A stretch of 64,000 nt of DNA, taken from NCBI GenBank assembly GCA_019752815.1, contig JAIELQ010000007.1, forward strand, positions 115,728-179,727. Direction: 5' to 3'. This DNA comes from Patescibacteria group bacterium (GTDB lineage: Bacteria > Patescibacteriota > Minisyncoccia > Phycocordibacterales > UBA918). Every line of letters begins with the position of its first letter. The stretch's first letter is position 1. Position numbers and translations under genes: made by a program. Shown here piece by piece: positions 2,225 through 28,502 of the stretch. The notes beneath the pieces are model-generated. The model worked only from the letters and a program-made list of their open reading frames with translations. It was not told where the DNA came from and searched no databases.

Positions 2225-2249
2225 GCGAGTGCTACAATAATAAAAATCT

Positions 2250-5240: not shown

Positions 5241-5365
5241 TCCGGTTTCCAAAATTTGCACATTGCGTTGTCGTCACTGCGGAACTTTTCGTTCCGTCGT
5301 ACGATGGTACGCCTATACGAAAAGTCCTTGTACTCCTAGCACTGTACTCAATTTTGAAAACCTCA
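5241..5365. repeat. 3'-UTR repeat family, copy B (TTCCAAAAtTTGCACATTGCGTTGTCG..CTGCGG.AC.TTTC..CCGTCGTAC-GAT-GGTACG..ACTCCTAGCACTGTACTCAATTTTGAAAA)
   Basis: Near-identical 5' and 3' modules to copy E (11161-11370). Lies between the ABC ATPase and permease genes. Confidence 0.6.
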
Positions 5366-5454
5366 ATACACATATTAATTATAGAATGAGTCATTAAAAT
5401 AAAACCTGTGGGTTGTATCAAGTTACAAATACTCCCTGTGTCATAATAGAGTAA

Positions 5455-8778: not shown

Positions 8779-8781
8779 TTA

Positions 8782-8990
8782 TAGAACTTCCAGAAAGGGC
8801 ACACTTCTTCGTTGGATAATAAAAAATACGCCTCAATGTACAAATGTACACCTCGGCGTATTTTTTATTATCCTTCTTACAGAAGCTGTCCACTCATTGG
8901 CCAGATTGTTTCTCAAGTTCACAACCTGGCTCAATGAGTCTTGCGGAAGCTTTGTGCTTCCTCACTCGAATTGTACTCCTTTCTGAAAGT
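8782..8990. repeat. 3'-UTR repeat family, copy D (long modular form)
   Basis: Starts AGAACTTCCAGAAAGGGCACA as in copies B/E. Shares an internal module (CTTCTTACAGAAGCTGTCCACTCATTGG ... CTCAATGAGTCTTG) and a 3' module (CACTC..TACTCCTTTCTGAAAG) with copy E. Confidence 0.55.
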
Positions 8991-9013
8991 CCCGTTACCT
9001 AATAAAAAACAAT

Positions 9014-9051
9014 AACCACCGTTATCAGACGGTGGTTGTTGCTTTTTGTTG
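9014..9051 (+). terminator. Rho-independent terminator
   Basis: AACCACCGT-TATCAG-ACGGTGGTT followed by GTTGCTTTTTGTTG. Confidence 0.6.
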
Positions 9052-9079
9052 AAATATTTTTGATAATAGTATCACCTGC

Positions 9080-10045: not shown

Positions 10046-10046
10046 T

Positions 10047-11162: not shown

Positions 11163-11370
11163 AACTTCCAAAAATGGCACATTGCGTTGTCGCTGCTGCG
11201 GTACATTTTCCTCCACCGTACAGCGGTACGTTTCCAGAAAATGTCCTTGCTTCTTACAGAAGCTGTCCACTCATTCGGTATTTTTTACAAAATCCCTCAA
11301 TGAGTCTTGAGAAAGCAAAGCAGTTTGCTTTCTCACTCCTAGCACTGCACTCAGTTTTGAAAATTCTACT
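11161..11370. repeat. 3'-UTR repeat family, copy E (long modular form)
   Basis: AACTTCCAAAAATGGCACATTGCGTTGTCGCTGCTGCGGTACATTTTCCTCCACCGTAC-AGCG-GTACG... 5' half matches copy B; internal and 3' modules match copies D and B. Confidence 0.6.
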
Positions 11371-11452
11371 CAACGTGTGATTCTGACGTTTGGTGATATG
11401 CGAGATTTTGTAGTGATTCATTTTTAACTAGACCGGGTAACAATTAATTTTA

Positions 11453-11830
11453 GTTCGAGTCCCTGTCAGGCAGCGAGTAGAAAAGACATTCTTCGGGATG
11501 TTTTTTCGTATCGCTGCCTGACAGGCGCAGCTTTCTGAAAGAAAGCGTCTGCGCGAACTCGAAGCCGTTGCCAGCTCTTTTGAAAAAAGAGCGACAACGG
11601 GTACTGAACATGTAATGTTCGAGTCCCTGTCAGGCAACAATCGGCAGACCACAAATGTGAATACATTTGTGGCCTTTGCCGTTGCTAGTATGACAGGGGC
11701 TCGAAAGACGTAAGCCGGGGCCCCTCTGGGCCGGCGAGTCGGGGTCGAAAGCACTTACTAGAATTGGAACGAAGTGAACAATTTTAGTTATTGACTTGTG
11801 ACCGAGTCCCTGTCAGTCATAAAAAATCGG
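11453..11830. other. Densely structured non-coding block: three direct copies of GTTCGAGTCCCTGTCAGGCA (tRNA T-arm/acceptor 3'-end-like), each with an inverted partner. Several long nested hairpins. Candidate structured ncRNA(s) or att-site remnants.
   Basis: Copies at 11453-11472, 11617-11636 and 11802-11819. Perfect 15-bp inverted repeat 11462-11476/11511-11525. Hairpins at 11525-11554, 11565-11600 and 11621-11705. GC-rich hairpin GCCGGGGCCC-CTCT-GGGCCGGC at 11714-11735. Confidence 0.5.
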
Positions 11831-11900
11831 CTAGGAATTTACTAGTCGAATTCTTTATAATTTGTTATGCTCTGATTAGAAACAGCAAAGGGGTTGCAAG

Positions 11901-12350
11901 ATGACATCTGACAGCCCTTTTGAGGGTAAAATTGTGATTGTGTCGTACACAGAGTGTAATTTAGACACGGAAGACACTGCGTGTCTTGTGTATAGAGTTG
12001 AGCAAGGGAAACTCGTACCGTTACTTGGAGTTCTTGATTTGCCAGACGGCTTGCATTGGCATCGAAATGATTATGATCAATACGATGTTGCGATCGCTGT
12101 CATCAAGAGAACTGGCAGTCTCGAGGTTTTTGTTCCAAACTATTTTATTCCTGGGAAGCAATTTTTTGGTCAAGAGTTTGGATTTGTCGAACTCAGTGAA
12201 GGGCTAAATGATAAAAATGAGATTGAAGAGTGGTGTGAATATGATGGTTTCTTATATAATTGGGAAATGCTCAGATTGCTTGAGGAGCACCAGATTAAAG
12301 TCAGGTATATTGACCCAAAAACGATGCACGTCATTCCAGAAGAAAATTAA
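11901..12350 (+). CDS. Hypothetical cytoplasmic protein
   Basis: 149-aa ORF, no recognisable motifs. Followed by hairpin CGGCAC-GCT-GTGCCG and an AT tract (12353-12380). Confidence 0.45.
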   Translation: MTSDSPFEGKIVIVSYTECNLDTEDTACLVYRVEQGKLVPLLGVLDLPDGLHWHRNDYDQYDVAIAVIKRTGSLEVFVPNYFIPGKQFFGQEFGFVELSEGLNDKNEIEEWCEYDGFLYNWEMLRLLEEHQIKVRYIDPKTMHVIPEEN

Positions 12351-12541
12351 GTCGGCACGCTGTGCCGGCTTATTAATTTTATAATATATAAATCCAAATA
12401 TCGTCCCAGACGGCTAGCACAACAACTTTAGCTACATCTAGAAAAATGTAAAAGTTTAAGTCACCAATTTAAAAATAGAAAACCTGACGAGTATGAGTCG
12501 TCAGGTTTAGTTTTTCTTGTCAGCCATGGATTAATTTCGTT

Positions 12542-13111
12542 CTATAGCCAATCTGAATTCTTTTCGGTCCAGATATCAATCAGGGCCTCTTGATGTCCCA
12601 ATTGTACATAAAGTGTACAGAAGTCAGTGGTTGCCGCCGATTTTGTATCATAGAATCGTTTGACGGAGAAAGAAAAAGTCATAGCCACTTTAGTGTGTGC
12701 TTGAAGTACCGAAATGTATCGACGTGAAGTCTCATGCAAATAGGCTTTGTACTGGAGGGCATCAATACCCCCATACAGTGATATTGGGGTATTGAATGTA
12801 ATGAAATTCATCACAATTGTGATAATCACTGCCGCTGCAAATACTGCGAGAGCACCACCTACTGCCAGTTGCCCAATTTGTCTGAACTCAAAGAAAAAAA
12901 ACAGTCCGCCACACATACACACAATCACACTTGCTATATACGCCGCGATCGTTGCACCAGCCAGTTTCTCTTGGTGGACCAGTAGATAAAATCGCCACCA
13001 AGATTCATGTGCCCGTTGCACAGTATTCTGTGCTCTGGTACGTTCCTGGTACGAGATGGGATTAATGTGCACTTCTGCCAGTAACGAAGCGAGGTCTTTA
13101 TGTATCATCAC
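12542..13111 (-). CDS. Hypothetical membrane protein (2 TM helices)
   Basis: 189-aa ORF with hydrophobic segments AAYIASVIVCMCGGLFFFF and LAVFAAAVIITIVMNFITF. Confidence 0.45.
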   Translation of the reverse strand: MMIHKDLASLLAEVHINPISYQERTRAQNTVQRAHESWWRFYLLVHQEKLAGATIAAYIASVIVCMCGGLFFFFEFRQIGQLAVGGALAVFAAAVIITIVMNFITFNTPISLYGGIDALQYKAYLHETSRRYISVLQAHTKVAMTFSFSVKRFYDTKSAATTDFCTLYVQLGHQEALIDIWTEKNSDWL

Positions 13112-13445
13112 AGTGGAACTCCTAAGAATGAACAGAGAGGCACTTTGCCCCGATGTAACAAAAATACGATATTTTACAAAAAAAGCAATATTGCAAATTT
13201 AAAAAACTAACTTCAAGCTAATTGAAATCTTTACTTTATTTATAAAAATTTATGTAAAAAAGTCCTAACATCGTCCCAAACAGCCAGTAAAAAAATTAGG
13301 TTGACCCGGACAGAGTTCTTTTCTTGAGGGTGGTGATTTATTGGTAAAAATATTTTTCACCTTATTTCGTTTAGATTTAAACCCTTGGTTTTATTGCTTT
13401 GTAATTACTAGAAATGTATATGTAGTGTGCTATTATTTTCAAATT

Positions 13446-14417
13446 ATGTTTATTACAATCGTTTTGTTTGTTGTTGGATTTATTATTTTAGTGAAGGGGG
13501 CGGATATGTTGGTGAGTGGAGCGTCCTCCTTGGCGGCGAGGCTCGGTGTATCGGCGTTGGTTATTGGTTTGACGATTGTCGCGTTCGGCACATCAGCTCC
13601 TGAGCTGATTGTGAACTTGCTTGCGAGTTTGCAAGGAAATACTGATATTGCGATTGGAAATATTTTAGGGAGTAATATTGTAAATATTCTTTTGATCTTG
13701 GGTATTTGTGCAGTGATGTACCCACTCTCAGTAGGAAAAGGCACTACCTGGAAGGAGATTCCCTTTGCGCTCTTAGCTGTTGTAATGTTGGGTTGTTTGG
13801 CTCTTGATCAAATGCTCGGCGGGGCAGAATCTTCACTAATTTCATTTGGTGATGGTTTGGTGCTGATCGGTTTCTTTGCGATATTTTTGTACTATATCTT
13901 TTCGATTGCAAAAGAGGATGCTGGACAGATGGAATCAGTGAAGACTGATGCAGTGCCAGCGCAATCATTAGTACGTTCTGTTACCTTGATTGCTATCGGT
14001 CTATCCGGGTTAGTTATAGGCGGAAAGTGGATTGTCGACGGTGCAGTTTTCTTTGCAACTGCGTTAGGAGTGAGTGAATCATTAATTGGCTTGACGATTG
14101 TGGCTGTAGGTACATCACTGCCTGAACTGGCAACTTCAGTGGCTGCTGTGTATCGACGAAACATTGATATTGCAGTTGGAAACATTGTGGGTTCCAACAT
14201 TTTTAACATATTTTGGATCTTGGGCGTGTCTGCGGTGATTACCCCGCTACCTTTTTCTGAACAATTTACCATTGATCTACTCGTTACATTTGGAGCCACA
14301 CTACTGTTATTCCTGGTCTTATTTGTTGGTCGGAAACATACTATTGAACGTTGGCAGGGAGTCTTGTTTATCGTTCTCTACGTTGCCTATGTCGCATATT
14401 TAATTGGGCGAGGGTAA
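13446..14417 (+). CDS. Ca2+/Na+ antiporter, CaCA family (YrbG-like)
   Basis: Duplicated alpha-repeats GTSAPEL..GNILGSNIVNILLILG and GTSLPEL..GNIVGSNIFNIFWILG. Start reassigned to the internal Met (MFITIVLFVVGFIILVKGADMLVSGAS). The upstream 35 codons of the listed ORF are AT-rich leader. Confidence 0.8.
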   Translation: MFITIVLFVVGFIILVKGADMLVSGASSLAARLGVSALVIGLTIVAFGTSAPELIVNLLASLQGNTDIAIGNILGSNIVNILLILGICAVMYPLSVGKGTTWKEIPFALLAVVMLGCLALDQMLGGAESSLISFGDGLVLIGFFAIFLYYIFSIAKEDAGQMESVKTDAVPAQSLVRSVTLIAIGLSGLVIGGKWIVDGAVFFATALGVSESLIGLTIVAVGTSLPELATSVAAVYRRNIDIAVGNIVGSNIFNIFWILGVSAVITPLPFSEQFTIDLLVTFGATLLLFLVLFVGRKHTIERWQGVLFIVLYVAYVAYLIGRG

Positions 14418-14488
14418 AAGATTAGTCTAAGAAAGTACATAGTACAGAGAATCACTATATCGCCACACTCTTAGTGTTGAGTATGTAA

Positions 14489-14532
14489 AAGCTTCAAGTC
14501 TCGGGAAAGAGAAGTGAAGCTTTTTGTTTTTT
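14489..14532 (+). terminator. Rho-independent terminator
   Basis: AAGCTTCA-(18-nt loop)-TGAAGCTT followed by TTTGTTTTTT. Confidence 0.7.
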
Positions 14533-15031
14533 GTAGTATAAAAAGTCATACCACAGTTATTGGGTGCAGGTTTTAAAGTATAGAAACAATTACAGAACGT
14601 TCATTGGGTTGTATATGAGTGCTGGACAATGTATCTTGCGGGTTATAGTTTTGGTATGACTTAGAGTTATTTTTTTGTTAATTTATTTTTTGCGTTTATG
14701 CTGGTAGTAGTGATCGTGGTTTTTTAAAAAATGATAAATCTTTTTTACTCGTATAGGCTTTGTTTGTGTATAAGTATCTCTAAAAAAAAATCCATCGGGC
14801 TACAATGAGAGGGTACTTGTTTTGGGGGTATCACTTAGGATGCCATAGCTGCTTCACTGTAGCTAAATGACCTTCAGCCGGGAGTTCCGAAACAGGTATG
14901 CTTACGATTCTATATAGGTAATCGGTGTGGAGACCAATTACCGGTATTTATCTTTATGGTAAATAGCTTTTATATACGTCTTTGTACATGTATATGGAGG
15001 CAATGGTAGGCTAATACAACGTAGAGAATAT

Positions 15032-16174
15032 ATGAGTAGAACGAATACCACGTTCGGACTACTCCAAGCTATTGCAGCGATAGCAGCCTTTGCCATACTT
15101 CTATGGTCAATTGGTTTGCCATCATTCCGTTTTGCGGAAGCTGCAAGTGTCACGTCGCTTAGCGACACCCTCTCAGATTCTGCTCCTGCAGTTGGATCTG
15201 ATCACACTATCAACTTTATTACACCAAGTGGTGTAGCAAACGGTAGTACGATTGTTGTAGATTTTTCTGATGGACCATTTGTGGTTGGTTCAGTTAACTT
15301 CACAGACATTGACGTCTTTGATGACGCCACCAGTCTCGATGTTGCTGCAAACTGCTCTGGTACAGAACAAATCGGTGCGTCCTTTTCTGGGTCAGTCCTC
15401 ACACTTGAATTTTGTTCAGGTGATGGCGGATCACTCCCTACATCAGGCACAACGACAATCTTGATTGGTGAAAATGCTGCTGGAGGAAATGCCCAATTAA
15501 CTAACCCATCAGTTGGATCGTATGAAATCAATCTAACCGTTGGAGCAAGTGATATTGGCTCAACTCGAGTAGCGATTATTGCACCAGTTGTAGTGACGGC
15601 TGCTGTGGATACGAGCTTTACCTTTACGGTAGCGGGTCTTCCAGGCGGTACCGATGTGAACTCGTTGGTAACAACAGGGACATCAACTGCAACTGCAATT
15701 GCATTTGGTGCACTGACAGATGGTAATGCATCTTCTGCTGCTCAACGATTAAGTGTTTCAACAAACGCTAGTTATGGTTTTGCAGTAACTGTGCAGGCAG
15801 ATCAACAACTGACTTCGTCAGCCGGAGCAGATATTGATGGATTTATCGACGGTGCATTTACGAATACTCCGGTATCATGGACATCACCAACACCGATAAT
15901 TTCAGATGAAGATACGTGGGGTCACTGGGGTCTAACCACCAATGATGCAACGTTCGGACTCTCTGACCCGTTTGATGTAGGAGGAGCTGGCAATCGTTTT
16001 GTTTCAGCTTCAACTACACCAGTACAGATATTTCGACATGATGGACCAGCTGACGGTACAACCCAAGATATTGGGCGAGCCGATGTGGGTTATCAAGTAG
16101 AAATCTCAGGTTTGCAGGAAGCAGGAACAGATTACACCGCTACGCTGACATACGTAGCAACTCCAGTATTCTAA
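15032..16174 (+). CDS. Secreted/anchored Thr/Ser/Gly-rich surface protein (candidate abundant cell-surface structural protein)
   Basis: N-terminal hydrophobic segment FGLLQAIAAIAAFAILLWSIGL. Low-complexity beta-rich composition. Preceded by a ~600-bp AT-rich leader and followed by a strong terminator. Confidence 0.55.
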   Translation: MSRTNTTFGLLQAIAAIAAFAILLWSIGLPSFRFAEAASVTSLSDTLSDSAPAVGSDHTINFITPSGVANGSTIVVDFSDGPFVVGSVNFTDIDVFDDATSLDVAANCSGTEQIGASFSGSVLTLEFCSGDGGSLPTSGTTTILIGENAAGGNAQLTNPSVGSYEINLTVGASDIGSTRVAIIAPVVVTAAVDTSFTFTVAGLPGGTDVNSLVTTGTSTATAIAFGALTDGNASSAAQRLSVSTNASYGFAVTVQADQQLTSSAGADIDGFIDGAFTNTPVSWTSPTPIISDEDTWGHWGLTTNDATFGLSDPFDVGGAGNRFVSASTTPVQIFRHDGPADGTTQDIGRADVGYQVEISGLQEAGTDYTATLTYVATPVF

Positions 16175-16206
16175 ACGAATAGTGGATCCAAGCTTGGAGT
16201 ACAAGC

Positions 16207-16246
16207 AAAAAACCCTATCTCCCACCACGAGTAGGGTTTTTGCTTT
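16207..16246 (+). terminator. Rho-independent terminator
   Basis: AAAACCCTA-(loop)-TAGGGTTTTT followed by GCTTTGTGT. Confidence 0.65.
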
Positions 16247-16274
16247 GTGTACAAGATCATAAAAGCTCGTAGAT

Positions 16275-17312
16275 ATGGGCTATACTAGAACTACTATGAG
16301 GTATATTTTGTTGGCGGTTGTGTTTCTTGTCTCAGCTTCGATGGTTGAGGCAGCGACACTGTATATGGACCCTAATACAGTCAGTCTTAATCGTGGTGAC
16401 GCTGCTAAAATTTCCATCAGACTCGATACCGACGAGGCAGCGGGTGAGTGTATTAACGCAATTGATGCGGTGATTTCTTATAGTGACAATATTATTCCGG
16501 TTGATATTTCAGTGGGAAAATCTATTTTGCCAATTTGGGTAGAAAATCCAGTCATTAACAAAGAAAATAACACTATTAGTTTTGCTGGTGGTATCCCGAA
16601 TGGGTATTGTGGACGAGTACAAGGAGATCCAAATCTTACCAACACCCTCGTGGAAATTTTTTTTAGAGCACCCGGTATGCAAGTGGGTGGTGGTGAAGCT
16701 CGTTCACAAGCAACAGTGCAATTTACCGATGAAACAACAGCGTATTTAAATGATGGAGCCGGAACACCTGCGAGTTTACAAAAAATTGGTGCTAATTTTA
16801 CGCTCGGCGACAATGTAGGAAGTGAAATTCTCGATCCGTGGAGTGGTGATGTGCAATCAGATGATGCTCCGCCAGAGGAGTTTAGTGCTAGTGTTGAAAT
16901 GATTGATAACAAATGGTTTGTAGTGTTTAACACCACTGATAAACAAACAGGAATCAGTCATTATGAAGTCATTGAAGAAACCTATTCACAATCAAAGCTT
17001 TTTGACTTTGGAGCGGCCACAGCGCCTGGGGTCGAAACACGTAGTCCCCATTTATTAAAAGATCAGTCACGTAACAGTGTTGTCCGGGTACGAGCTATCG
17101 ATAAAGCTGGTAATGAGTATGTAGCTACCGTGCCCGTTGATGAGTCGGCTCGTCGCTTTTCGATTACGCCGGAGCTTATGGTCATGGCAGGTATTGCAAT
17201 TACGGGAGTGCTGATACTACTAGGCCTCGTGTACTGGTTCATCAGACGGCGTAGAGCAAAAAAGAATACGCTTGCTAATTTAGAAGAAAGTGATTCTGGT
17301 GTATTAGAATAA
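16275..17312 (+). CDS. Cohesin-like domain surface protein with C-terminal TM anchor and basic tail
   Basis: Signal peptide, then ATLYMDPNTVSLNRGDAAKISIRLDTDE...AIDAVISYSDNIIPVDISVG..ISFAGGIPNGY (cohesin-like beta-sandwich pattern). C-terminal TM MVMAGIAITGVLILLGLVYWFI plus RRRRAKK. Confidence 0.6.
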   Translation: MGYTRTTMRYILLAVVFLVSASMVEAATLYMDPNTVSLNRGDAAKISIRLDTDEAAGECINAIDAVISYSDNIIPVDISVGKSILPIWVENPVINKENNTISFAGGIPNGYCGRVQGDPNLTNTLVEIFFRAPGMQVGGGEARSQATVQFTDETTAYLNDGAGTPASLQKIGANFTLGDNVGSEILDPWSGDVQSDDAPPEEFSASVEMIDNKWFVVFNTTDKQTGISHYEVIEETYSQSKLFDFGAATAPGVETRSPHLLKDQSRNSVVRVRAIDKAGNEYVATVPVDESARRFSITPELMVMAGIAITGVLILLGLVYWFIRRRRAKKNTLANLEESDSGVLE

Positions 17313-17316
17313 AAAT

Positions 17317-19068
17317 ATGAATATCGAACTATCTACCTTTGTACAAAAAGTCTTCATCCGAGTACTTCTTGTGGGAATAATCTTATTTGCGCTTCCTGTA
17401 CTCACCCAGGCTGCGACGTTGTCAGTTTCTCCTGGAACGGGAGTGTATAAAACTGGCGCCACGTTTACTGTAACAGTATTTGTAAACACTGCGGGTGTGC
17501 CGGTAAATGCCGCTGATGGAACACTTTCATTTAATCCTCGTGAACTATCGGTTGTTTCAGTATCCCGAGCGTCATCAATTTTTAATCTTTGGACTACGGA
17601 ACCAGCTTTCTCAAATTCAGCTGGTACGGTGTCATTTTCTGGTGGTGTGCCAACAGGCTACACTGGTAGTGCGGCAAATGTGCTGTCGGTAACATTTAGG
17701 TCTCTTACCTCGGGTGCTGCCCGCGTGTCTCTGACTGGAGCATCCGTCTTGGCAGCTGATGGACGAGGCACTAATGTTCTTACCGGGATGAGCGGAGGTA
17801 CGTATACACTATCAGCAGTAGAGTCGCAGCCGGCACCAGAAGTAATTGTTGAGTATGTGCCACCTGCAAATACCCCAAATGCACCGGTAATTACCTCAGC
17901 GACACATCCAGATCAAAATAGCTGGTCTAAAGAAACAACCGCCGTGTTTAATTGGACAGTGCCTGCCGGTGTAACAGCAGTACGAACAGGACTGGATAAA
18001 AGTCCGGTAGCGATTCCAACCAAAGTCTACGATAGTCCTATTCGAACTTTGACAATCCCTGACTTGGATCAAGGGGTGTCGTATCTGCACGTTCAGTTTA
18101 GAAATGCCGACGGTTGGGGTAAGGTTGCGCATTACAAATTGTCAGTTGACTCTGAAAAGCCTGAATCGTTTACCATCACGTTACCTGAAGATGCTGATCT
18201 CTCAAGTCCAACACAAACCCTTAATCTAGCTATCGTAGATAAAGCATCACCGGTCACAAAATTTAAAGTTCAGCTTGATGGTGGTGAGGCATATGACCAC
18301 ACCGCTTCGGGAACTAACCCTACGCTTGAGCTACCTAATCTAACGCCAGGTTACCATACAGTCGTTGTTGAAGGGTTCGATAGTGCGGGTAATTCCTTAA
18401 TCGCGACATTTTCATTTAGTATTACCGCTTTTGATAAACCACTCATAACTGAGTATCCAGCTACCCTCAATTCAGGAGTGACACCAGTTATACGTGGTAC
18501 TACCAAGGCAAATGCAACAGTAAAAGGTGTACTGACAGACGTGCAAGGTGTGGAAACTATTCTGGAAGGTGTAGCTGACGGCAGTGGTGTGTTTACCATT
18601 ATTCCTACCGATTCACTTAAGACTGGACGATATTCGCTTGTAGTAACCGCTACCGATGTTTCTGGTGGGCAAAGTGAACCGTCAGATACGGTAACGATAG
18701 TTGTATCTGAGCCAGGATATGTAGCAGTTGGGTCGTTTTTGATTAGTTTCTTTTCAATCCTTATACCACTCATTGCTCTGGTTGTATTGACGTGGTTGAC
18801 ACTCATCTATTCAATACGAAAAATGGGTCGCATGCGGGCACGGGTTATAGTAGAATCTGAAGAGGCAGCCATGATGCTCGCGACCGAGTTCAGACATTTG
18901 GATCAAGTCATTGCAGAGCAAGAAGCCGCCCTTATAGCTTCGCACAAAACGAAAAAGTTAACCAAAGCCGAAGAAACAATGTTTGCTGAACTTAAGTCGA
19001 CCATCGCTGAAGCCAAGCGTCGAGTCGGAAAAGAAGTTGATGATGTTACCCATGTATTCAAAAAATAA
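17317..19068 (+). CDS. Cohesin-like domain surface protein with Ig-like repeats and C-terminal TM anchor / cytoplasmic coiled-coil tail
   Basis: Signal peptide, then ATLSVSPGTGVYKTGATFTVTVFVNTAGVPVNAADGTLSFNPRELSVVSVS..VSFSGGVPTGY, colinear with the N-termini of 16275 and 19751. TM FLISFFSILIPLIALVVLTWL followed by a charged helical tail. Confidence 0.6.
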   Translation: MNIELSTFVQKVFIRVLLVGIILFALPVLTQAATLSVSPGTGVYKTGATFTVTVFVNTAGVPVNAADGTLSFNPRELSVVSVSRASSIFNLWTTEPAFSNSAGTVSFSGGVPTGYTGSAANVLSVTFRSLTSGAARVSLTGASVLAADGRGTNVLTGMSGGTYTLSAVESQPAPEVIVEYVPPANTPNAPVITSATHPDQNSWSKETTAVFNWTVPAGVTAVRTGLDKSPVAIPTKVYDSPIRTLTIPDLDQGVSYLHVQFRNADGWGKVAHYKLSVDSEKPESFTITLPEDADLSSPTQTLNLAIVDKASPVTKFKVQLDGGEAYDHTASGTNPTLELPNLTPGYHTVVVEGFDSAGNSLIATFSFSITAFDKPLITEYPATLNSGVTPVIRGTTKANATVKGVLTDVQGVETILEGVADGSGVFTIIPTDSLKTGRYSLVVTATDVSGGQSEPSDTVTIVVSEPGYVAVGSFLISFFSILIPLIALVVLTWLTLIYSIRKMGRMRARVIVESEEAAMMLATEFRHLDQVIAEQEAALIASHKTKKLTKAEETMFAELKSTIAEAKRRVGKEVDDVTHVFKK

Positions 19069-19076
19069 TTACTGCT

Positions 19077-19754
19077 ATGAAAATTAATTTAAACCGCCTG
19101 ACTACCATTCTGATTATCTGTGTGATTGTACTCATTGTCGTATTCCTCACCCTGCACGCTTCTACATCAGGCCAAAACAGTAAAGTAACTGCGACGCTAG
19201 ATGCTGCAATACTTATTCAAAAAGACAATCTGGCAGATCTGGCCGATATTACCCGAGTTAATGGTGCAGATGCCACAACTGACCGTATTATTACCGATTG
19301 TAGTGCTGGTGAACGTGAACGATTTGATACACTGCTTGATAAATTACAAGGAAATATCTCCAAAGATGAATTAAACGAACTCAATACCTTGTTTTATGCC
19401 TGCGGTAGTTTTTTTGCTGATAGAAAAGCGGTGGTGGCTACTAAATTACTGCGTGAGGTTGAGGTGCTTTCCGATTATCTTGATTTACGGAGTATTGTAA
19501 CGAGTAAAAGTTCTGAAGGGTCATCCCAACTAGAGGCATGGAAGAAGCTTGCTGAGTCTGAACTCAAAACCGCGGAATATTTTAAGGAGCTAGTTTTATT
19601 GCAAGGAAAAATCATCGTACTTTTAAGTAGTGGACAAACACCGACCTCGCCTGAGGTGTTGGCAACGCTCAGTCAGGTGAGTACGATACGAGGACAAATG
19701 CTTGTCTTAGGTAATCAAATTGAAGTTCTAAAAACCGAGGCGTTAACACTATGA
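19077..19754 (+). CDS. Membrane-anchored coiled-coil protein of unknown function
   Basis: N-terminal TM LTTILIICVIVLIVVFL; remainder helical. 4-nt start/stop overlap with the next gene (ATGA). Confidence 0.5.
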   Translation: MKINLNRLTTILIICVIVLIVVFLTLHASTSGQNSKVTATLDAAILIQKDNLADLADITRVNGADATTDRIITDCSAGERERFDTLLDKLQGNISKDELNELNTLFYACGSFFADRKAVVATKLLREVEVLSDYLDLRSIVTSKSSEGSSQLEAWKKLAESELKTAEYFKELVLLQGKIIVLLSSGQTPTSPEVLATLSQVSTIRGQMLVLGNQIEVLKTEALTL

Positions 19755-20509
19755 AATTCTTACGGAGAGCTTTACAAAAAGTATTTCCAACCTTGGGATT
19801 AAAAAACTCTCCGACGGTTCGCTACGCGTTCTCTTTTTTGTTTGTATTTGCAGCTGTTGCCTCTATTGCAGCCGTTTCAGGGACAAAAGGTTCCTATGTG
19901 AAGGTGGTACCAAGCGCTAACATGGTTGAGGTGAACACACAGTTCAATTTGGAAGTGTACGTATTTGCTGATGCGCCAATTAATGCGGTTGATCTCAGTG
20001 TATTGTATCCAGAAGCTCAGGTAGAAGTGCTCGGTATTGATAAAGGAGAGTCGGTAATCACACTTTGGACAGAAGAACCTCATGTGAAAGACGGTGCCGT
20101 GGTTTTGCGTGGTGGGACATACAAACGAGGTTTTGTTGGTGAGCATAAAATAGCTACCATTAACCTTAAAGCCAAAACAGCCGGTAGTGCTCAGTTTCTG
20201 GCAGGAACAGTCATGTTGCTTGCAGGTGATGGTAAGGGAACAAGTATCAAGGCCGATACTACCCGAGCGAAAATCGTCACTACTGTGTACCCCGCAGGTC
20301 AAAAACCAACCGGTCCTATGACACTTGAAGGGGAAGTGAGCTTCCTCGTAGTTACAGATATTGATGGCGATGGTTCAGTGACACTGACTGATATCAGCTC
20401 ATTTATGGCAAATTGGACCTCAAAGGAGCGACAATTTGATTTTAACAATGATGGACAGATGACGTTTCGGGATTTTTCTATAATTTTGTTTGATTATTTT
20501 TCAAAGTAA
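19751..20509 (+). CDS. Protein with an N-terminal cohesin-like domain and a C-terminal dockerin-like double repeat
   Basis: Cohesin-like: YVKVVPSANMVEVNTQFNLEVYVFADAPINAVDLSVLYPEAQVEVLGI..LRGGTY. Dockerin-like: DIDGDGSVTLTDISSFMANW ... DFNNDGQMTFRDFSIILFDYF (Ca-binding positions 1,3,5,9,12 = D,D,D,T,D and D,N,D,T,D). Confidence 0.6.
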   Translation: MKFLRRALQKVFPTLGLKNSPTVRYAFSFLFVFAAVASIAAVSGTKGSYVKVVPSANMVEVNTQFNLEVYVFADAPINAVDLSVLYPEAQVEVLGIDKGESVITLWTEEPHVKDGAVVLRGGTYKRGFVGEHKIATINLKAKTAGSAQFLAGTVMLLAGDGKGTSIKADTTRAKIVTTVYPAGQKPTGPMTLEGEVSFLVVTDIDGDGSVTLTDISSFMANWTSKERQFDFNNDGQMTFRDFSIILFDYFSK

Positions 20510-20602
20510 GTCGGAATGGTGATGAGATTTATGTTGATAAAAAAGCGTTTTAGTTGCGTGATACCTGATATTATGTACTAGATGGGAAATTTATAACGGA
20601 CC

Positions 20603-22273
20603 GTGAATCCGTTATATAAACAATTGGCTGAAAAGAAAGTGAACAAGGCCAACCATAATCAAAAGAATATTCGACCACGTCAGGTAATCCTCTACCGTAA
20701 CGTGTTTTATTCCCGTGTATCTTCTGCGGTGGTTTTGTTGTTGTGTCTATCTTTCCTCTTACAACCAATCGAACGCGTATTTGCCTCCGAAACTACTCCT
20801 ATTGATTCAGAAACGAGCGCTACTATCAATTTGGCAGTTGATGCTGGTTTGTCTGATTCAACACCTGAAGCACCAACTGAAGCTTCCGAAACGACATCAA
20901 CTGATGTTGTGTCTTCAGATGCTCCTGAAACTAATGTAGCTAATGCGGACGATGGTTCTTCTAACACTGTAACTGAAGATGTTAGTGAAGTCAGTGATCA
21001 GCTGGTTGGTGAGACTGATGTTGCCGACGGTGCTGATTCAAAAGATACTAGTGAAAGTAGTAACGATGAATCAAGTACCACGACAGTCTTTACTGACGAA
21101 GAAATTCAAGACCTTATTAATCCTGAAGATGAACTTCCTCCTGCCGAATTAGAAGTAGGTACCACGACTGCGACTAGTACTGAAATTCCAGTGGCGGTGA
21201 CAACTGTACACAGTGATGCGGTGATGCAATTTAATCGTAATGATTGTGTAACGGTTGAGGACGGCTCATTCTATTGTCAGAGTAAAAAAGAAGAAGCAGA
21301 ACAGGGAACCGACGGCATGTATGCGTTGCAAGATAAAGATGGTGATCTTGAAATATTTTTACAAAAAAATGGTGAGTTGGCTCAGCTGACATTTAATACC
21401 GTTGATGATGCTGCGCCAGTATTTGACACTAAATCAAATACTATTGTTTGGCATCGGTTGGTGGATGAGCGCTACCAAATCATTTCCTATGATTTAGAGA
21501 GTGAACGCGAAGTGCAGCTAACTGCTGATAACGTAAACAATATGGAACCGAGCCGTTCAGGTAATTTTACAGTTTGGCAACGATGGAACGACACTAACTG
21601 GGATATTGTATTGTACGATGGTACTGAAACAAAATTCCTGACTGATAGCCTCCAGCACGACATTGCTCCGAATGTAAAAGGTGATTTAGTGATGTGGAAT
21701 CGTTTGGCGTCAGATAACACGCAGACAATTGAATTATTTGATATTGTGACGGGTGAATTTACCACGATTACCGATGAAGAGGGTGGAGCGTTGTCCAATC
21801 CTCGTATGGTATTAGTTTACGAAACGGAATTTGCTAATGGGGACGTGGTAACTAAAGGTTACAATGTTGAAACCGGAGAAGTGACGCCACTCGCAAATGA
21901 TCCGGCTGAATTACCAGAAGAATTACCTGAACCAGATGCTACCGGTGAAACAAGAGCGCTCGTGCAGCCAAAGAATCCAACCAAAGAAGACGCAGAGATA
22001 AGCGAAGATGTTTTTCCCGGTATCGATAGTGACCCAAACCTTTCTGGAACTTCAACTGCATCCTCTACCTACTCACCACAGTCAGGTGATTTGCATATTG
22101 CATCTTCCAGTTCGTACATTGCCGGCAGTACACCAAATACGGGAACAAATACCGAAACAATCGCTGATATGACGCTCGATCTCACGCCTCCGGTTTTGCT
22201 GCCAGCTGATATTCCTCAGGATCTGGTGGTGCCACCGTTTGTGCCCGACGTTTCAATAGAAACTAGCGAGTAG
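20603..22273 (+). CDS. Highly acidic Ser/Thr/Asp/Glu-rich membrane-anchored protein
   Basis: TM AVVLLLCLSFLL near the N-terminus. Long D/E/S/T low-complexity N-terminal third. Beta-propeller-like W-containing repeats in the middle (WHRLVDERYQI, WQRWNDTNWDI, MWNRLASDNTQTI). Confidence 0.5.
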   Translation: MNPLYKQLAEKKVNKANHNQKNIRPRQVILYRNVFYSRVSSAVVLLLCLSFLLQPIERVFASETTPIDSETSATINLAVDAGLSDSTPEAPTEASETTSTDVVSSDAPETNVANADDGSSNTVTEDVSEVSDQLVGETDVADGADSKDTSESSNDESSTTTVFTDEEIQDLINPEDELPPAELEVGTTTATSTEIPVAVTTVHSDAVMQFNRNDCVTVEDGSFYCQSKKEEAEQGTDGMYALQDKDGDLEIFLQKNGELAQLTFNTVDDAAPVFDTKSNTIVWHRLVDERYQIISYDLESEREVQLTADNVNNMEPSRSGNFTVWQRWNDTNWDIVLYDGTETKFLTDSLQHDIAPNVKGDLVMWNRLASDNTQTIELFDIVTGEFTTITDEEGGALSNPRMVLVYETEFANGDVVTKGYNVETGEVTPLANDPAELPEELPEPDATGETRALVQPKNPTKEDAEISEDVFPGIDSDPNLSGTSTASSTYSPQSGDLHIASSSSYIAGSTPNTGTNTETIADMTLDLTPPVLLPADIPQDLVVPPFVPDVSIETSE

Positions 22274-22341
22274 TGTGGTGTAATACCGGCTCTCTACAGG
22301 TAGTAGTTTGTAGGGTACGCAAAGCATGAGAAAATAAACCC

Positions 22342-25300
22342 ATGGGGAGGTATCCTTCGTTTTTTAATTGTGTACGTACGCATAAATGCGTGAGCGCTTT
22401 TCTGCTTCTTTTGACTATCGGTGCGCAATTTACGTTTCTGGAATTCTTATTGCCCAGAATTGCTCAAGCTGCGGTTGTTACTATCGATGCAACGGTCAGT
22501 CTCACGGCCACGGAACATCTCTTTGCTGGATCACAAACTGTATTTACGACAGATCAAATTGGCTATAAATTCTATGTTGATTCATCAGGTGTTTGTGCGT
22601 ATAGCAAAACCACTGATGGTGGTAATTCCTGGGGAGGGGCAGTCACAGTAGATAGTAAAACAGATTGTACGAGTATTGCAGTTTGGTACGATCGCTGGAC
22701 TCCTGGCGATGCCGGTAATAATATTCATATTTCAACCATGAACGTCGCTAATGCGACTGATGTGATTTGGTACAATCGTCTCGATACTAGTTCAGATACT
22801 CTTTTGTCAGGTACAACTCCTATTAATACCGTCAGTAATTCTGCACAGGTACCTACCTATGTTGCTGGTACTAATGAACAAACTATTAGTAAAAGCACTA
22901 CCGGTGTTCTGTACATCGCAGCTTCAGATGCCTCGGATTCATTTGTTATCCAATGTAGTACAGGCTGTAACACTACAACCAATTGGACCCAAGCCGGTAC
23001 AAACTTTATGGATTTGGACAACGACTGGAACCTCCTGATGCCAATCCTCGGCGGTAACATGTTGCTTATTAACCGGGATATTTCAGCAGACGATATCCGA
23101 ACTCGAGTTTGGAACGGCAGTACTTGGTCCGGCAGTTGGACTGCGGTTGATTCAGCAGCAGTGGAGGGGGCAACCTATGATATTGCAATGGCTGCTACCC
23201 AAGACCATTCCTCGGGCGATATTTATCTTGCCTACGCAGCTGATAACGATAGTTATACTGTCCTTGACCATGATGTACGGACTGCCAAATACGTCAGCGG
23301 CTCTTGGACTTCTACAGCTAATATTTTTACAAATTCTACACGTGGTTTAACTGGTATTGCAATTTCGCTTGATACCAACCTGGGAGTAATTTATGTCGCG
23401 TATGGATTACGTACTACGCCCGCAACGGCCACTACAGGTAACATTTACTATTCAACGTCAACGAGTGCCATGTCATCATGGAGTGCAGAACAAGGACCGG
23501 TGAATACCACACCTGGAGATCTCTATGGTATTGATATGAATATCATGAGTGACGAGCGAATTTATGCGACGTGGCAAGACCCAGCACCGGATGATATTTT
23601 TGGTGAGACAATAGCAAACATTGCGCCAGTAACAAAAGTATCTACGCTAGGAACTCCGGCCACGAGTGTGTCGGCGAGCACTAGTAATTTCTATACTGGT
23701 GGAGCATTTTTAATCAAAGAAAGCCAGGTCAGTCGTAATGTCACCGACATTACTATTTCTGAAAATGGAACAGTTGACGGGAGTGGTGCTATTAAAAATA
23801 TAAAACTATTTTATGATTTGGATACCAGTGCGCCCTATGATTGTGTGAGTGAAACATACTCTGGCCTGGAAACACAATTTGGTAGTACCGATGTAAATGG
23901 TTTTACTGGAGCAGATGGTGTGTCATCCTTTAATGGTTTAGTTAATATCACTCCCACTCAGGCGATGTGCGTCTATACAGTAGTTGATGTGCTTGATGCT
24001 GCACTCAGTGCTTCCACGTTACGGGTATTTATTGACAATCCAGGTTCTGATGTGTTGGTTTCGGGTGGCGGGTTAGTTACACCAGACACCCCAGTTGCAT
24101 TTGTTTCTGGCACCACAATTAACAACGATACACTTACGCAAACGCATTATCACTGGCGAAATGATAACGGAAATGAAACCGCTGCAACGTCTGCTACCGG
24201 CGGAATTGCTGATACGCCAATTCCCGCGCTGCTTCAAAACACTCCGCGGCGACTTCGTGTACAAGTTTCAAACGAAGGTTCGCTCGCCAGTCCCGCTACC
24301 CAATTTCGGTTAGAGTATGCCGAAGCTGCGCCAACTTGTGCTGCGGCGAGCGGGTGGACTGATGTGAATGCCACCAATGATGCCTGGAATATGTTTGACT
24401 CCACCTTTGTACCTAATGGTTCAAATACCACTGATATTTCAGTAGCGAGCGGGGGGATGGTAAATGAAAATACTACTTTCCTTACCCCCAATGGTGGTCA
24501 ACTTGATACTACTTCACAAACAGGCCCATTAACCTTAACTGCTACAAATTTCGTTGAGTTAGAATATTCGATTGTGGCCTCTAGTAGTGCTCCACAGGGT
24601 ACAACCTATTGTTTTAGAGTTACCAGTGCGGGGACAGTATTACCAGTCTACAGTGTCTACCCACAGGTAACAGTATCAGCAGATGTTTCGGTAAGTGCTA
24701 TTGGCACCCAGGCATCATCGGCCATTATTCCAACTACAAATTTTCAAGTTGGCGGTACGTTTGTGTTTACTGAAAATGTTAGCTCTCGTAATCTCACCAG
24801 TATAACAATTACTGAAACGGGTTCAGTTAATGGTGCGACCAGCTTGGATAATATTCGTTTACGGTATGATCTCGATACTACAGCTCCGTACAACTGTGCT
24901 AGTGAATCATATGCGGGAACAGAGACACAGTTCGGCGCAACTGACACCGATGGCTTTTCGGGTCCTAACGGCAGCTCCACTTTTACTGGCTCTGTGTCAC
25001 TTACCACCACTCAGGCGGTATGTATGTATACAGTTTTTGACATTACCAGTGCCGCCAATAATGGGGAAGATATTCAAATAGAAATTGCTAATGGCGGGAA
25101 TGATGTTGTTGTTTCTGCTGGAGCGGTTGGTCCAACTACACCGGTGTTGCTTGCTGGCACTACTACCTTGTCAGGAGCAATTTTAGCGCAAACAGGGTAC
25201 CACTGGCGTACTGATTCTGGCAGTGAAACTACCGCACCCTCAGCAACAGCAGGAAATCAGAATACCCAACTCATTGAACATGCAGCCAGTAGTTCGATAC

Positions 25301-28497: not shown

Positions 28498-28502
28498 CTC
28501 CT

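What the first reader, a model, noticed from the sequence alone, without database searches (positions are those of the whole stretch)
16275..20509. Cohesin-like and dockerin-like modules in adjacent surface-protein genes
Three consecutive secreted proteins (16275, 17317, 19751) start, after their signal peptides, with a colinear ~140-aa module. Its pattern is ATL.V.P......G..F.V.V.V......V.A.D..L.F.P..L.V.....S....W......G.V.F.GG.P.GY, which fits the cohesin beta-sandwich. Two proteins carry C-terminal tandem 22-residue repeats with the dockerin Ca-binding signature D-x-[DNS]-x-[DN]-G-x-V-[NTS]-x-x-D-F-S-I-L. Protein 10047..11162 has DLSRDGKVNLVDFSILIF / DINGNGRVSLEDFSILLFNW. Protein 19751..20509 has DIDGDGSVTLTDISSFMANW / DFNNDGQMTFRDFSIILFDYF. 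The 19751 protein carries both modules, like a scaffoldin adaptor. The cohesin-only proteins end in a TM helix plus a basic tail, so they are membrane anchored. This is the parts list of a non-cellulosomal cohesin-dockerin assembly on the surface of what looks like a small-genome episymbiont. Such an assembly could mediate envelope organisation or host attachment.
Basis: partly seen in the sequence, partly recalled or inferred. Interest (0 to 1): 0.65.

Follow-up and report, generated by a model that had tools for sequence, protein, structure and literature searches.

The report
Cohesin–dockerin set in CPR surface locus
Three membrane-anchored proteins with real but divergent cohesin modules and two proteins with real dockerin modules form a fixed part of a 12-gene cell-surface locus conserved across many ultra-small Patescibacteria, so these bacteria probably use the cellulosome's "plug-and-socket" pair to build a surface structure, not to digest cellulose.

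Summary
Minor corrections: gene 19077..19754 lies between the second and third cohesin genes, and protein 17317 has a roughly 85-residue cytoplasmic tail, not a short basic one.

**Cohesin.**
- The isolated module of protein 17317 passes Pfam Cohesin (25.2 bits against a 24.1 cut-off).
- The other two modules are its homologues (hhalign 99.6% and 99.95%).

**Dockerin.** Both dockerins pass Pfam Dockerin_1, and all four Ca-binding loops are canonical.

**Organism and locus.**
- The source is a Patescibacteria MAG whose closest relatives are Ca. Kaiserbacteria.
- Three cohesins plus two dockerins recur, in fixed gene order, in about 80 species-level genomes inside a 12-gene all-secreted locus.
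- The modules are the most conserved parts of their proteins.
- The two TM-anchored cohesin proteins are fused into one protein in other lineages.
- The locus also encodes a 380-aa protein and a 2051-aa giant protein that share a C-terminal domain. That domain matches NCBIfam's CPR Pam-pilin model consistently, but below its cut-off.

**Limits and rating.** Cohesin–dockerin binding, partner pairing and function are inferred, not shown. I rate this a new member of a known kind (non-cellulosomal cohesin–dockerin) in an undescribed conserved context, of moderate interest.

The parts
16275..17312 (+). Protein F (345 aa). Layout: signal peptide (cleavage about VEA|A), N-terminal cohesin-like module (residues ~27-180, nt 16353-16814) with an invariant Cys pair and a conserved insertion, a ~110-aa Ig-like domain, a TM helix (residues ~301-322, nt 17175-17240), and an RRRRAKK tail.
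   Evidence: ORF and hydropathy. Homologous to G by BLASTP E 9e-12 and hhalign 99.6%. The window module does not reach Pfam Cohesin; 6 of 61 orthologs do. The cohesin is the most conserved segment (0.56 vs 0.47 overall). F is fused to G in other lineages.
17317..19068 (+). Protein G (583 aa). Layout: signal peptide, N-terminal cohesin (residues ~33-170, nt 17413-17826), Ig-like region (Big_13), a TM helix (residues ~466-495, nt 18712-18801), and a ~85-residue charged helical cytoplasmic tail.
   Evidence: The isolated module passes Pfam Cohesin at 25.2 bits (cut-off 24.1, E 2e-5), and 60 of 61 orthologs hit it (best 1.6e-12). Big_13 scores 37.7 bits. Hydropathy. The cohesin is the most conserved segment (0.65 vs 0.49).
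19077..19754 (+). Protein H (225 aa). It has an N-terminal TM helix and a helical remainder with no recognisable domain. It lies between G and I and overlaps I by 4 bp (ATGA).
   Evidence: It is conserved in position in 75 of 82 related loci.
19751..20509 (+). Protein I (252 aa). Layout: N-terminal hydrophobic segment (residues 25-43, either a signal anchor or a signal peptide with a long n-region), cohesin (residues ~47-182, nt 19889-20296), a poorly conserved ~20-residue linker, and a dockerin (residues 202-252, nt 20354-20506) with two Ca loops, DIDGDGSVTLTD and DFNNDGQMTFRD.
10047..11162 (+). Protein D (371 aa). Layout: cleavable signal peptide, Cys-rich repeat (DUF4215 / myxo_disulf_rpt), Gly/Ser linker, two Ig-like domains (Big_6 and CarboxypepD_reg-like), and a C-terminal dockerin (residues 317-371, nt 10995-11159) with loops DLSRDGKVNLVD and DINGNGRVSLED. 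It has no TM helix, so it is predicted to be secreted.
   Evidence: Pfam and NCBIfam hits are. The isolated dockerin scores 31.1 bits against a 22.9 cut-off. The dockerin is the most conserved segment (0.86 vs 0.62). Two loops are kept in 52 of 54 orthologs.
15032..16174 (+). Context: protein E (380 aa), the most conserved protein of the locus. It models as a two-β-sandwich protein (NTD 42-182, linker strand 196-202, CTD 234-378). It is a candidate major subunit (distant Pam-pilin-like) of the structure the locus builds.
   Evidence: AF2 model has pLDDT 84. Of the family, 51 of 56 members hit NCBIfam CPR_Pam_pilin_C below its cut-off (best 9.7e-8), and the isolated CTD scores 34.4 bits. There are more than 2100 homologs. 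Foldseek against the PDB gives only generic two-Ig adhesins and pilins.
22342..28497 (+). Context: protein K (2051 aa), a secreted giant protein. Its last ~200 residues are homologous to the linker plus CTD of E. It also contains an internal ~330-aa tandem duplication.
   Evidence: E vs the K C-terminus gives 34% identity over 199 aa, E 3e-14. The K C-terminus hits CPR_Pam_pilin_C over profile positions 3-148 of 148, in the window and in two orthologs (E 6e-6 to 8e-7, below the cut-off). The duplication is shown.
6886..31110 (+). Context: the whole conserved locus, with genes named B to M.
- B 6886..8778
- C 9080..10045
- D 10047..11162
- a window-specific insertion at 11163..15031
- E, F, G, H, I (coordinates given in the other parts)
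- J 20603..22273, with an N-terminal TM and a β-propeller
- K
- L 28503..29480
- M ~29416..31110, with LytR_C

All genes are on the + strand, and every product has a signal peptide or a TM helix.
   Evidence: The order B-C-D-E-F-G-H-I-J-K-L-M is kept in essentially all of about 80 species-level loci wherever the contig reaches. The insertion is shown.

Best explanation
These are genuine but divergent cohesin modules (three) and dockerin modules (two). They are hard-wired into a conserved 12-gene cell-surface locus of Paceibacteria-type Patescibacteria.

**Proposed mechanism.**
- F and G are type-I membrane proteins, fused into one polypeptide in some lineages. Each holds one cohesin at the outer end of an Ig-like stalk.
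- D is a secreted Cys-rich/Ig-like protein. Its C-terminal dockerin plugs, Ca2+-dependently, into one of these cohesins, so D is displayed on the cell.
- I is a small cohesin-plus-dockerin adaptor. It either links a further partner or chains the components together.
- The complex most likely forms the membrane-anchored base or an accessory of the extracellular structure built from the other locus products: the abundant pilin-like E and the 2051-aa K.

**Shown.** Module identity, predicted topology, a fixed inventory of three cohesins and two dockerins, strong purifying selection on the modules, synteny, and the F-G fusion.

**Inferred.** That the modules bind each other, the pairing, the Ca dependence, and the link to a filament or to host attachment.
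For: **Cohesin identity.**
- G passes the Pfam gathering score, and 60 of 61 orthologs hit the model.
- F and I are tied to G by hhalign at 99.6% and 99.95%.

**Dockerin identity.**
- Both pass the Pfam gathering score.
- All four loops are canonical.
- The model shows loop-helix twice.

**Functional coupling.**
- Exactly 3 cohesin and 2 dockerin genes occur per locus across about 80 genomes and about 1.4 Mb of flanks, with no others.
- Gene order is invariant.
- The dockerins are the most conserved segment of D (0.86 vs 0.62) and of I (0.62 vs 0.44). The cohesins are the most conserved segment of F and G.
- The Ca loops are kept in 82/82 and 52/54 orthologs.
- F-G fusion proteins recur (about 29 of 145 top representatives) with the expected TM hairpin. 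In one such locus the dockerin gene D lies directly upstream of the fusion.
- The same cohesin subfamily includes a nine-cohesin, dockerin-bearing scaffoldin-like protein elsewhere.

**Topology.**
Against: - No binding or complex prediction could be run. The structure tool models single chains only and exposes no coordinates or PAE.
- The window's F and I modules do not themselves reach Pfam Cohesin.
- The dockerins are short (27 and 31 residues from loop start to loop start, with about 7 Pfam model positions deleted), and their helices are unusually hydrophobic (FSILIFWW, FSILLFNW).
- Three cohesins against two dockerins leaves at least one socket without a known plug in the locus.
- The rest of the genome was not surveyed for further dockerins.
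- The link to a filament rests on sub-threshold NCBIfam hits and on synteny alone.
Confidence: 0.6

Rival explanations
1. The β-sandwich modules have the cohesin fold and ancestry but do not bind the dockerin-like modules. They bind something else, such as host glycans, peptidoglycan or other locus proteins. The dockerin-like modules are only Ca2+-stabilised EF-hand-type end caps.
For: No interaction was tested. F and I miss the Pfam threshold. The I dockerin also scores above the EF-hand_1 cut-off when isolated (26.8 vs 25.4 bits). The dockerin helices are atypically hydrophobic. Cohesin and dockerin numbers do not match, at 3 vs 2. Many non-cellulosomal dockerin or cohesin modules have no known partner (review cited in PMC9012536).
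Against: Both module types co-occur in a fixed number within about 10 kb in every one of about 80 genomes. They are the most constrained parts of their proteins. Archaeal non-cellulosomal pairs, the best structural match here, are reported to bind specifically (PMC9012536 citing Haimovitz 2008). A nine-cohesin relative carries a dockerin.
Confidence: 0.2
2. The cohesin-TM proteins F and G are primarily pilus-assembly or pilus-anchoring factors of a Pam-type donor-strand pilus, analogous to the membrane-anchored PamR terminator. They would act by β-strand complementation with E/K, with cohesin-dockerin contacts secondary or absent.
For: - E and K carry a domain that consistently matches CPR_Pam_pilin_C.
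- The E model has the NTD, linker strand and CTD layout described for Pam pilins (preprint 10.64898/2026.03.03.709456).
- F and G share PamR's general layout of β-sandwich domains plus a C-terminal TM helix.
- C and L have the signal peptide, β-rich domain and C-terminal TM layout reported for PamC/PamD.
Against: - All Pam hits are far below the curated cut-off (26-34 vs 55 bits).
- No PapD-like or RbmA-like similarity was found for C, L, F or G.
- The preprint mentions neither cohesin, dockerin nor Paceibacteria.
- This reading does not explain the strongly conserved dockerins.
- In one lineage D sits directly before the F-G fusion with no E between them.
Confidence: 0.15
3. A miniature cellulosome-like enzyme complex for polysaccharide degradation.
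For: The module types are those of cellulosomes. A distant relative of the cohesin subfamily lies next to a GH44 gene.
Against: Neither dockerin protein carries any catalytic or carbohydrate-binding domain. There is no multi-cohesin scaffoldin in the window. No CAZyme gene was found in the 64-kb window. Anchoring is by TM helices. The host lineage has genomes of about 1 Mb.
Confidence: 0.03

Closest known systems
Non-cellulosomal cohesin/dockerin proteins of Archaeoglobus fulgidus (PDB 2xdh cohesin)
   Different: It is archaeal. From my own knowledge, it is not part of a large conserved surface-structure operon. Sequence identity is only about 14%. In the present case the cohesins are held by TM helices and occur in a fixed set of 3 cohesins and 2 dockerins.
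Clostridium perfringens cohesin modules on secreted glycoside hydrolases (PDB 2vo8, 2jh2, 2w1n, 2o4e)
   Different: They are carried on large secreted enzymes. Here no enzyme domain is attached, and the cohesins are membrane-anchored.
Single-cohesin cell-surface anchoring proteins and adaptor scaffoldins of cellulosomes (e.g. C. thermocellum OlpA/OlpC, PDB 3ul4 and 4dh2; A. cellulolyticus ScaA adaptor, 3l8q)
   Different: From my own knowledge, those proteins are anchored by SLH domains or by sortase. Here anchoring is by TM helices. Their cargo is enzymes, and they use multi-cohesin scaffoldins; here each protein has a single cohesin, or two in the F-G fusions.
Dockerin/cohesin proteins of ANME archaea and dockerin-type giant proteins of Omnitrophota
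   Same: These are uncultured, partner-dependent or ultra-small organisms in which such modules are proposed to organise extracellular complexes or attachment (PMC9012536; 10.1101/2023.11.21.568195).
   Different: In those organisms the modules are numerous, variable between relatives, and attached to transporter-binding proteins or to huge repeat proteins. Here a small invariant set sits in one syntenic operon.
Pam pilus system of CPR bacteria (Ca. Mycosynbacter amalyticus; preprint 10.64898/2026.03.03.709456)
   Same: This concerns the locus context only. E and K match the CPR_Pam_pilin_C model consistently. E models as NTD, linker strand and CTD. Several signal-peptide, β-domain and C-terminal-TM proteins are present, and no trans-envelope machine is encoded.
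   Different: Scores are below the curated cut-off. The preprint reports Pam pilins mainly in Saccharimonadia and Microgenomatia and mentions neither cohesin, dockerin nor Paceibacteria. No ATP-synthase neighbourhood was found among the window genes I annotated; genes beyond about 47 kb were not scanned.

Membership tests
Cohesin (Pfam PF00963) | Sequence match to the family HMM at or above the gathering score | tested here: met
   - G, isolated module: 25.2 bits vs 24.1, E 2e-5; 60 of 61 orthologs hit. The full-length scan missed it.
- F window module: no hit; 6 of 61 orthologs hit.
- I window module: no hit; 28 of 89 orthologs hit.
- F and I are therefore members only through homology to G (hhalign 99.6% and 99.95%).
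Cohesin (Pfam PF00963) | Nine-stranded β-sandwich (jelly-roll) fold superimposable on solved cohesins | tested here: met
Cohesin (Pfam PF00963) | Binds a dockerin | not testable with these tools
   No multimer prediction or experiment was available. The only support is circumstantial: co-occurrence, conservation and gene fusion.
Dockerin type I (Pfam PF00404) | Sequence match at or above the gathering score (22.9 bits) | tested here: met
   I scores 23.1 bits full-length and 27.7 bits isolated. D scores 26.6 bits full-length and 31.1 bits isolated. Of I's orthologs, 79 of 89 hit the model.
Dockerin type I (Pfam PF00404) | Two tandem Ca-binding loop-helix repeats with D/N/S/T at loop positions 1, 3, 5, 9 and 12 | tested here: met
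   All four loops conform: DLSRDGKVNLVD, DINGNGRVSLED, DIDGDGSVTLTD and DFNNDGQMTFRD. They are kept in 82/82 and 52/54 orthologs. The model places a helix after each loop, at residues 212-224 and 239-251. The repeat spacing of 27-31 residues is shorter than the Pfam model.
Dockerin type I (Pfam PF00404) | Ca2+ binding and Ca-dependent cohesin binding | not testable with these tools
   This needs ITC or pull-down with and without EDTA, or AF3 with Ca2+.
Cellulosome (scaffoldin-based enzyme complex) | Multi-cohesin scaffoldin | tested here: not met
   Each window protein has one cohesin. Relatives have at most F-G two-cohesin fusions in this locus type.
Cellulosome (scaffoldin-based enzyme complex) | Dockerins borne by carbohydrate-active enzymes | tested here: not met
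   D carries Cys-rich and Ig-like domains only, and I carries a cohesin only. No CAZyme was found in the window ORFs that were scanned.
Pam pilus system (CPR) | Pilin matching NCBIfam NF058581 CPR_Pam_pilin_C at its cut-off (55 bits) | tested here: not met
   E scores 26.5 bits full-length and 34.4 bits for the isolated CTD. The K C-terminus scores 26.5 bits over profile positions 3-148 of 148. Of the E family, 51 of 56 members hit at E of 0.01 or better, and it is the only family hit. The match is consistent but sub-threshold, so E and K are distant relatives at best, not curated members.
Pam pilus system (CPR) | Pilin architecture of N-terminal β-sandwich, donor linker strand and truncated Ig-like CTD | tested here: inconclusive
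   The AF2 model of E shows NTD 42-182, strand 196-202 and CTD 234-378, which fits the preprint's description. No PamA/PamB structure was in the PDB copy to compare with, and the Foldseek hits are generic.
Pam pilus system (CPR) | PapD/FimC-like chaperones with a C-terminal TM helix | tested here: inconclusive
   C and L have a signal peptide, a β-rich ectodomain, a C-terminal TM helix and a basic tail. There are only weak Ig/Fn3/WxLIP hints and no PDB sequence hit.

The most novel reading that the evidence does not exclude
The cohesin-dockerin set is the anchoring and assembly hub of a Paceibacteria-specific, Pam-related surface filament.
- The TM-anchored cohesins F and G (one polypeptide in some lineages) hold the dockerin-tagged protein D and the adaptor I at the cell membrane.
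- The donor-strand-type subunit E polymerises there, with the 2051-aa K as the distal adhesin.

This would be the first case of cohesin-dockerin docking used in pilus or appendage biogenesis or anchoring. It would also be a conserved host-attachment apparatus of a major uncultured bacterial class.
Probability: 0.25. Interest if true: 0.75.

Novelty: new member of a known kind. Interest (0 to 1): 0.5.

Why it matters
- **Open question.** Paceibacteria/Parcubacteria are among the most abundant uncultured bacteria, and how they build their envelope and attach to hosts is largely unknown.
- **What this locus offers.** It is one of the few multi-gene surface systems conserved in strict order across many of their species. 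It contains a self-contained, experimentally tractable interaction pair: three sockets and two plugs, all small soluble modules that can be expressed and tested in vitro without cultivating the organism.
- **Annotation gap.** In the source MAG the proteins are annotated only as "hypothetical" or "DUF4215". I found no paper describing cohesin-dockerin in CPR.
- **Wider context.** The result extends the catalogue of non-cellulosomal cohesin-dockerin uses. If the Pam-like reading holds, it also extends the recently described CPR pilus family to a class where it was not reported.

Tried and rejected
1. **Full-length Pfam scan for Cohesin.** It gave no hit for any of the three proteins. This turned out to be a masking effect for G, whose isolated module passes. 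I therefore dropped my provisional conclusion that Pfam does not see a cohesin.
2. **Three-sequence profile against PDB sequences.** The only hits were two C. acetobutylicum cohesin entries at E about 0.9. That is suggestive but not significant. Deeper F and G profiles gave nothing significant by sequence, so fold comparison was needed.
3. **Chaperone identity of C and L.** There was no PDB sequence hit and only weak Ig/Fn3/WxLIP hints. This remains unresolved.
4. **Foldseek of the E model.** It returned only generic two-Ig-domain adhesins and pilins with TM-scores of about 0.2-0.3, so it gives no specific assignment.
5. **AFDB fold search.** The library was not installed.
6. **Na+/Ca2+ exchanger (13341..14417) as a Ca supplier for the dockerins.** Rejected. 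It lies in a 3.9-kb insertion that is absent from all related loci.
7. **Promoter and terminator scan.** It was uninformative: fewer promoter-like sites than in shuffles. The only strong hairpin outside the 3.9-kb insertion lies between B and C.
8. **Cellulosome reading.** Rejected, because there are no enzymes and no scaffoldin.
9. **Co-evolution or mirror-tree pairing of dockerins with cohesins.** Not attempted. The D dockerin is nearly invariant and the domains are short, so any signal would be dominated by phylogeny.
10. **Taxonomic labels.** Some related contigs are deposited as 'uncultured Candidatus Saccharibacteria', Acidimicrobiales or Azotimanducaceae. I treat these as generic labels or binning errors, not as evidence of wider distribution.

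Full report
**1. The observation.** The four ORFs exist as stated.
- The three N-terminal modules are homologous to each other: BLASTP E = 9e-12, 3e-12 and 1e-4, and hhalign on ortholog alignments gives 99.6% and 99.95%.
- A profile of the module finds only these three ORFs among 626 six-frame ORFs of the window.
- A Ca-loop regex finds only the two named proteins, with two loops each and sequences exactly as quoted.
- Corrections. Gene 19077..19754 (225 aa, N-terminal TM) lies between the second and third cohesin genes. Protein 17317 has a roughly 85-residue helical tail after its TM helix. Protein 10047 lies 3.9 kb plus one gene upstream of the cohesin genes.

**2. Are they cohesins?** I name the proteins F (16275), G (17317) and I (19751).
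- Full-length Pfam scans showed no Cohesin hit. The isolated G module does pass the gathering score (25.2 vs 24.1 bits, E 2e-5), and 60 of 61 G orthologs hit Cohesin, best 1.6e-12.
- The window's F and I modules do not reach the threshold. Of their orthologs, 6 of 61 (F) and 28 of 89 (I) do.
- An AlphaFold2 model of I built on 89 orthologs has pLDDT about 90 over residues 48-180.
- Foldseek against the PDB returns cohesins for the top 21 hits (E 3e-8, target TM-score up to 0.82).
- F is a sub-variant with an invariant Cys pair and a conserved insertion.

**3. Are they dockerins?**
- Dockerin_1 is passed by I (23.1 bits full-length, 27.7 isolated) and by D, the 10047 protein (26.6 and 31.1 bits), against a 22.9 cut-off.
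- All four loops carry D/N/S/T at positions 1, 3, 5, 9 and 12, and each is followed by a helix in the model.
- The repeats are closer together than in the Pfam model (27-31 residues), and the helices are unusually hydrophobic.

**4. Organism and distribution.**
- Protein E (15032..16174) is 100% identical to NCBI 'hypothetical protein K2P47_03120 [Patescibacteria group bacterium]' on a 190-kb contig.
- G, I, C, H and L are 'hypothetical protein' in that record, and D is 'DUF4215 domain-containing'.
- A scan of GTDB species genomes with the 252-aa family found 89 loci. The closest is Ca. Kaiserbacteria (81% identity). Others are labelled Nomurabacteria, Paceibacteria and Parcubacteria, and include chromosomes of about 1 Mb.
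- An exhaustive profile search found 8,632 representatives of this cohesin subfamily at 50% clustering.

**5. The locus.**
- In essentially all of about 80 loci the order B-C-D-E-F-G-H-I-J-K-L-M is kept wherever the contig reaches.
- Family-specific HMMs hit only F, G and I orthologs (cohesin) and only D and I orthologs (dockerin) across all flanks. The inventory is therefore fixed at three cohesins and two dockerins.
- The dockerins are the most conserved segments of D (0.86 vs 0.62) and of I (0.62 vs 0.44). The cohesins are the most conserved segments of F and G.
- Both Ca loops are retained in 82/82 orthologs of I and 52/54 orthologs of D.
- C-D, F-G, G-H and H-I are separated by 1, 4, 8 and -4 bp.
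- In other lineages F and G are one polypeptide. P0250 aligns colinearly with F (E 4e-58, including F's TM helix) and then with G (E 7e-129). It is an uninterrupted ORF in the standard code, and a D ortholog with its dockerin lies directly upstream.
- About 29 of the 145 top representatives have this layout of signal peptide, cohesin, TM hairpin, cohesin and TM.
- One relative has nine cohesins plus a dockerin, in a different locus that contains a GH44 gene.

**6. What the locus may build.**
- E is the most conserved protein of the locus, with more than 2,100 homologs.
- Of its family, 51 of 56 members hit NCBIfam CPR_Pam_pilin_C and nothing else, always below the 55-bit cut-off. The isolated CTD scores 34.4 bits.
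- The last ~200 residues of the 2051-aa K are homologous to the E linker plus CTD (E 3e-14). They hit the same model over its full length in three genomes.
- The AF2 model of E (pLDDT 84) has an NTD, a single linker strand and a CTD. This is the layout the Pam-pilus preprint describes.
- C and L have the signal peptide, β-domain and C-terminal TM layout reported for the PamC/PamD chaperones, but I found no sequence support for that assignment.
- The preprint mentions neither cohesin, dockerin nor Paceibacteria.
- I treat the Pam link as a well-motivated lead, not a result.

**7. Mechanism.**
- Best model (confidence 0.6): F and G, anchored by C-terminal TM helices, display cohesins. The secreted D docks onto them through its dockerin. 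I, with one cohesin and one dockerin, acts as an adaptor or chain-former. The complex is part of, or anchors, the structure made from E and K.
- Shown: module identity, topology, invariant inventory, selection on the modules, and the F-G fusion.
- Inferred: binding, pairing, Ca dependence and biological role.
- Rivals:
  - same fold but no mutual binding (0.2);
  - F and G as Pam-type assembly or anchor factors acting by strand complementation (0.15, and partly compatible with the best model);
  - a cellulosome-like enzyme complex (0.03; no enzymes and no scaffoldin).

**8. Novelty.**
- Cohesin-dockerin pairs outside cellulosomes are established, for example in A. fulgidus and ANME archaea; the C. 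perfringens structures turned up as top fold hits.
- Automated pipelines already label some orthologs 'cohesin domain-containing protein [Patescibacteria group bacterium]'.
- I found no paper on such a system in CPR.
- The modules are therefore a new member of a known kind. The undescribed part is their fixed place in a strictly syntenic 12-gene surface locus with Pam-pilin-like proteins.

**9. Limits.**
- No multimer prediction, no coordinates or PAE, and no whole-genome survey for further dockerins were possible.
- F, G, C and L were not modelled.
- Signal-peptide cleavage was judged by eye from AXA motifs and hydropathy.
- The genome scan used two peptide patterns and therefore samples only fairly close relatives.

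Noticed in passing
window 6886..31110 (genes B to M), with the MacB-type ABC pair at 3918..6663 upstream: A 12-gene locus, all on the + strand and all encoding secreted or membrane proteins, is kept in identical order in about 80 species-level Patescibacteria genomes. In 15 of the related loci an FtsX/MacB permease gene lies directly upstream. I could not find this locus described in the literature.
   Followed up: yes
window 15032..16174 (E) and 27742..28494 (C-terminus of K): The 380-aa protein and the 2051-aa giant protein share a C-terminal ~200-aa domain (34% identity, E 3e-14). That domain consistently hits NCBIfam CPR_Pam_pilin_C below its cut-off. This may be a divergent Pam-type pilus in a class where none has been reported.
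   Followed up: partly
window 15032..15142 (first 37 residues of E): The N-terminal signal region of E is far more conserved (0.61, with many near-invariant residues) than the signal peptides of the other locus proteins (0.13-0.21). This hints at a dedicated processing or sorting step.
   Followed up: no
window 11163..15031: A 3.9-kb insertion between D and E carries a 149-aa ORF, a 189-aa membrane ORF on the minus strand, and a Na+/Ca2+ exchanger (PF01699, 227 bits). None of the three genes occurs in any of the related loci, where this gap is 228-2038 bp.
   Followed up: yes
L084:3810-6515 (P0250) and about 28 other representatives: F and G are fused into one two-cohesin membrane protein with an internal TM hairpin in other lineages. 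In L084 the dockerin gene D lies directly upstream of the fusion, with no E gene between them.
   Followed up: yes
L083:4650-11480 (P0249): A 2276-aa relative has nine cohesin modules of this subfamily plus a dockerin hit. It lies in a locus with two further cohesin genes, a GH44 glycoside hydrolase and two cupredoxin genes. This is a scaffoldin-like system in an unidentified organism.
   Followed up: partly
window 23632..25941 (within K): The giant protein contains an internal tandem duplication of about 330 aa (49% identity, E 7e-108).
   Followed up: partly
window 17317..19068: Method caveat: hmmscan of the full-length 583-aa protein reported no Cohesin hit at E of 1 or less, yet the isolated 148-aa module passes the gathering score. 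The same masking occurred for CPR_Pam_pilin_C on the full-length K.
   Followed up: yes
window 28503..29480 (L) and ~29416..31110 (M); also 9080..10045 (C): L and M are paralogs (E about 1e-17), and M adds extra TM helices and a LytR_C domain. C and L share a layout of signal peptide, β-rich ectodomain, C-terminal TM helix and basic tail, which is reminiscent of membrane-anchored pilus chaperones. No sequence evidence for that role was found.
   Followed up: partly
window 9010..9041: A strong terminator-like hairpin (14 bp stem followed by a T-run) lies between genes B and C. It is the only strong such hairpin in the scanned stretch (8700..23000) outside the 3.9-kb insertion.
   Followed up: no
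L014, L074 and the many loci titled 'uncultured Candidatus Saccharibacteria': Contigs carrying the complete Paceibacteria-type locus are deposited under Acidimicrobiales, Azotimanducaceae or generic Saccharibacteria names. These are probably mis-binned or generically labelled records.
   Followed up: no
window 119..3689: Upstream genes encode a DUF2341 protein (701 aa) and a protein with fn3/purple-acid-phosphatase-N-like domains (479 aa). These are further secreted-type proteins, and I did not examine their relation to the locus.
   Followed up: no
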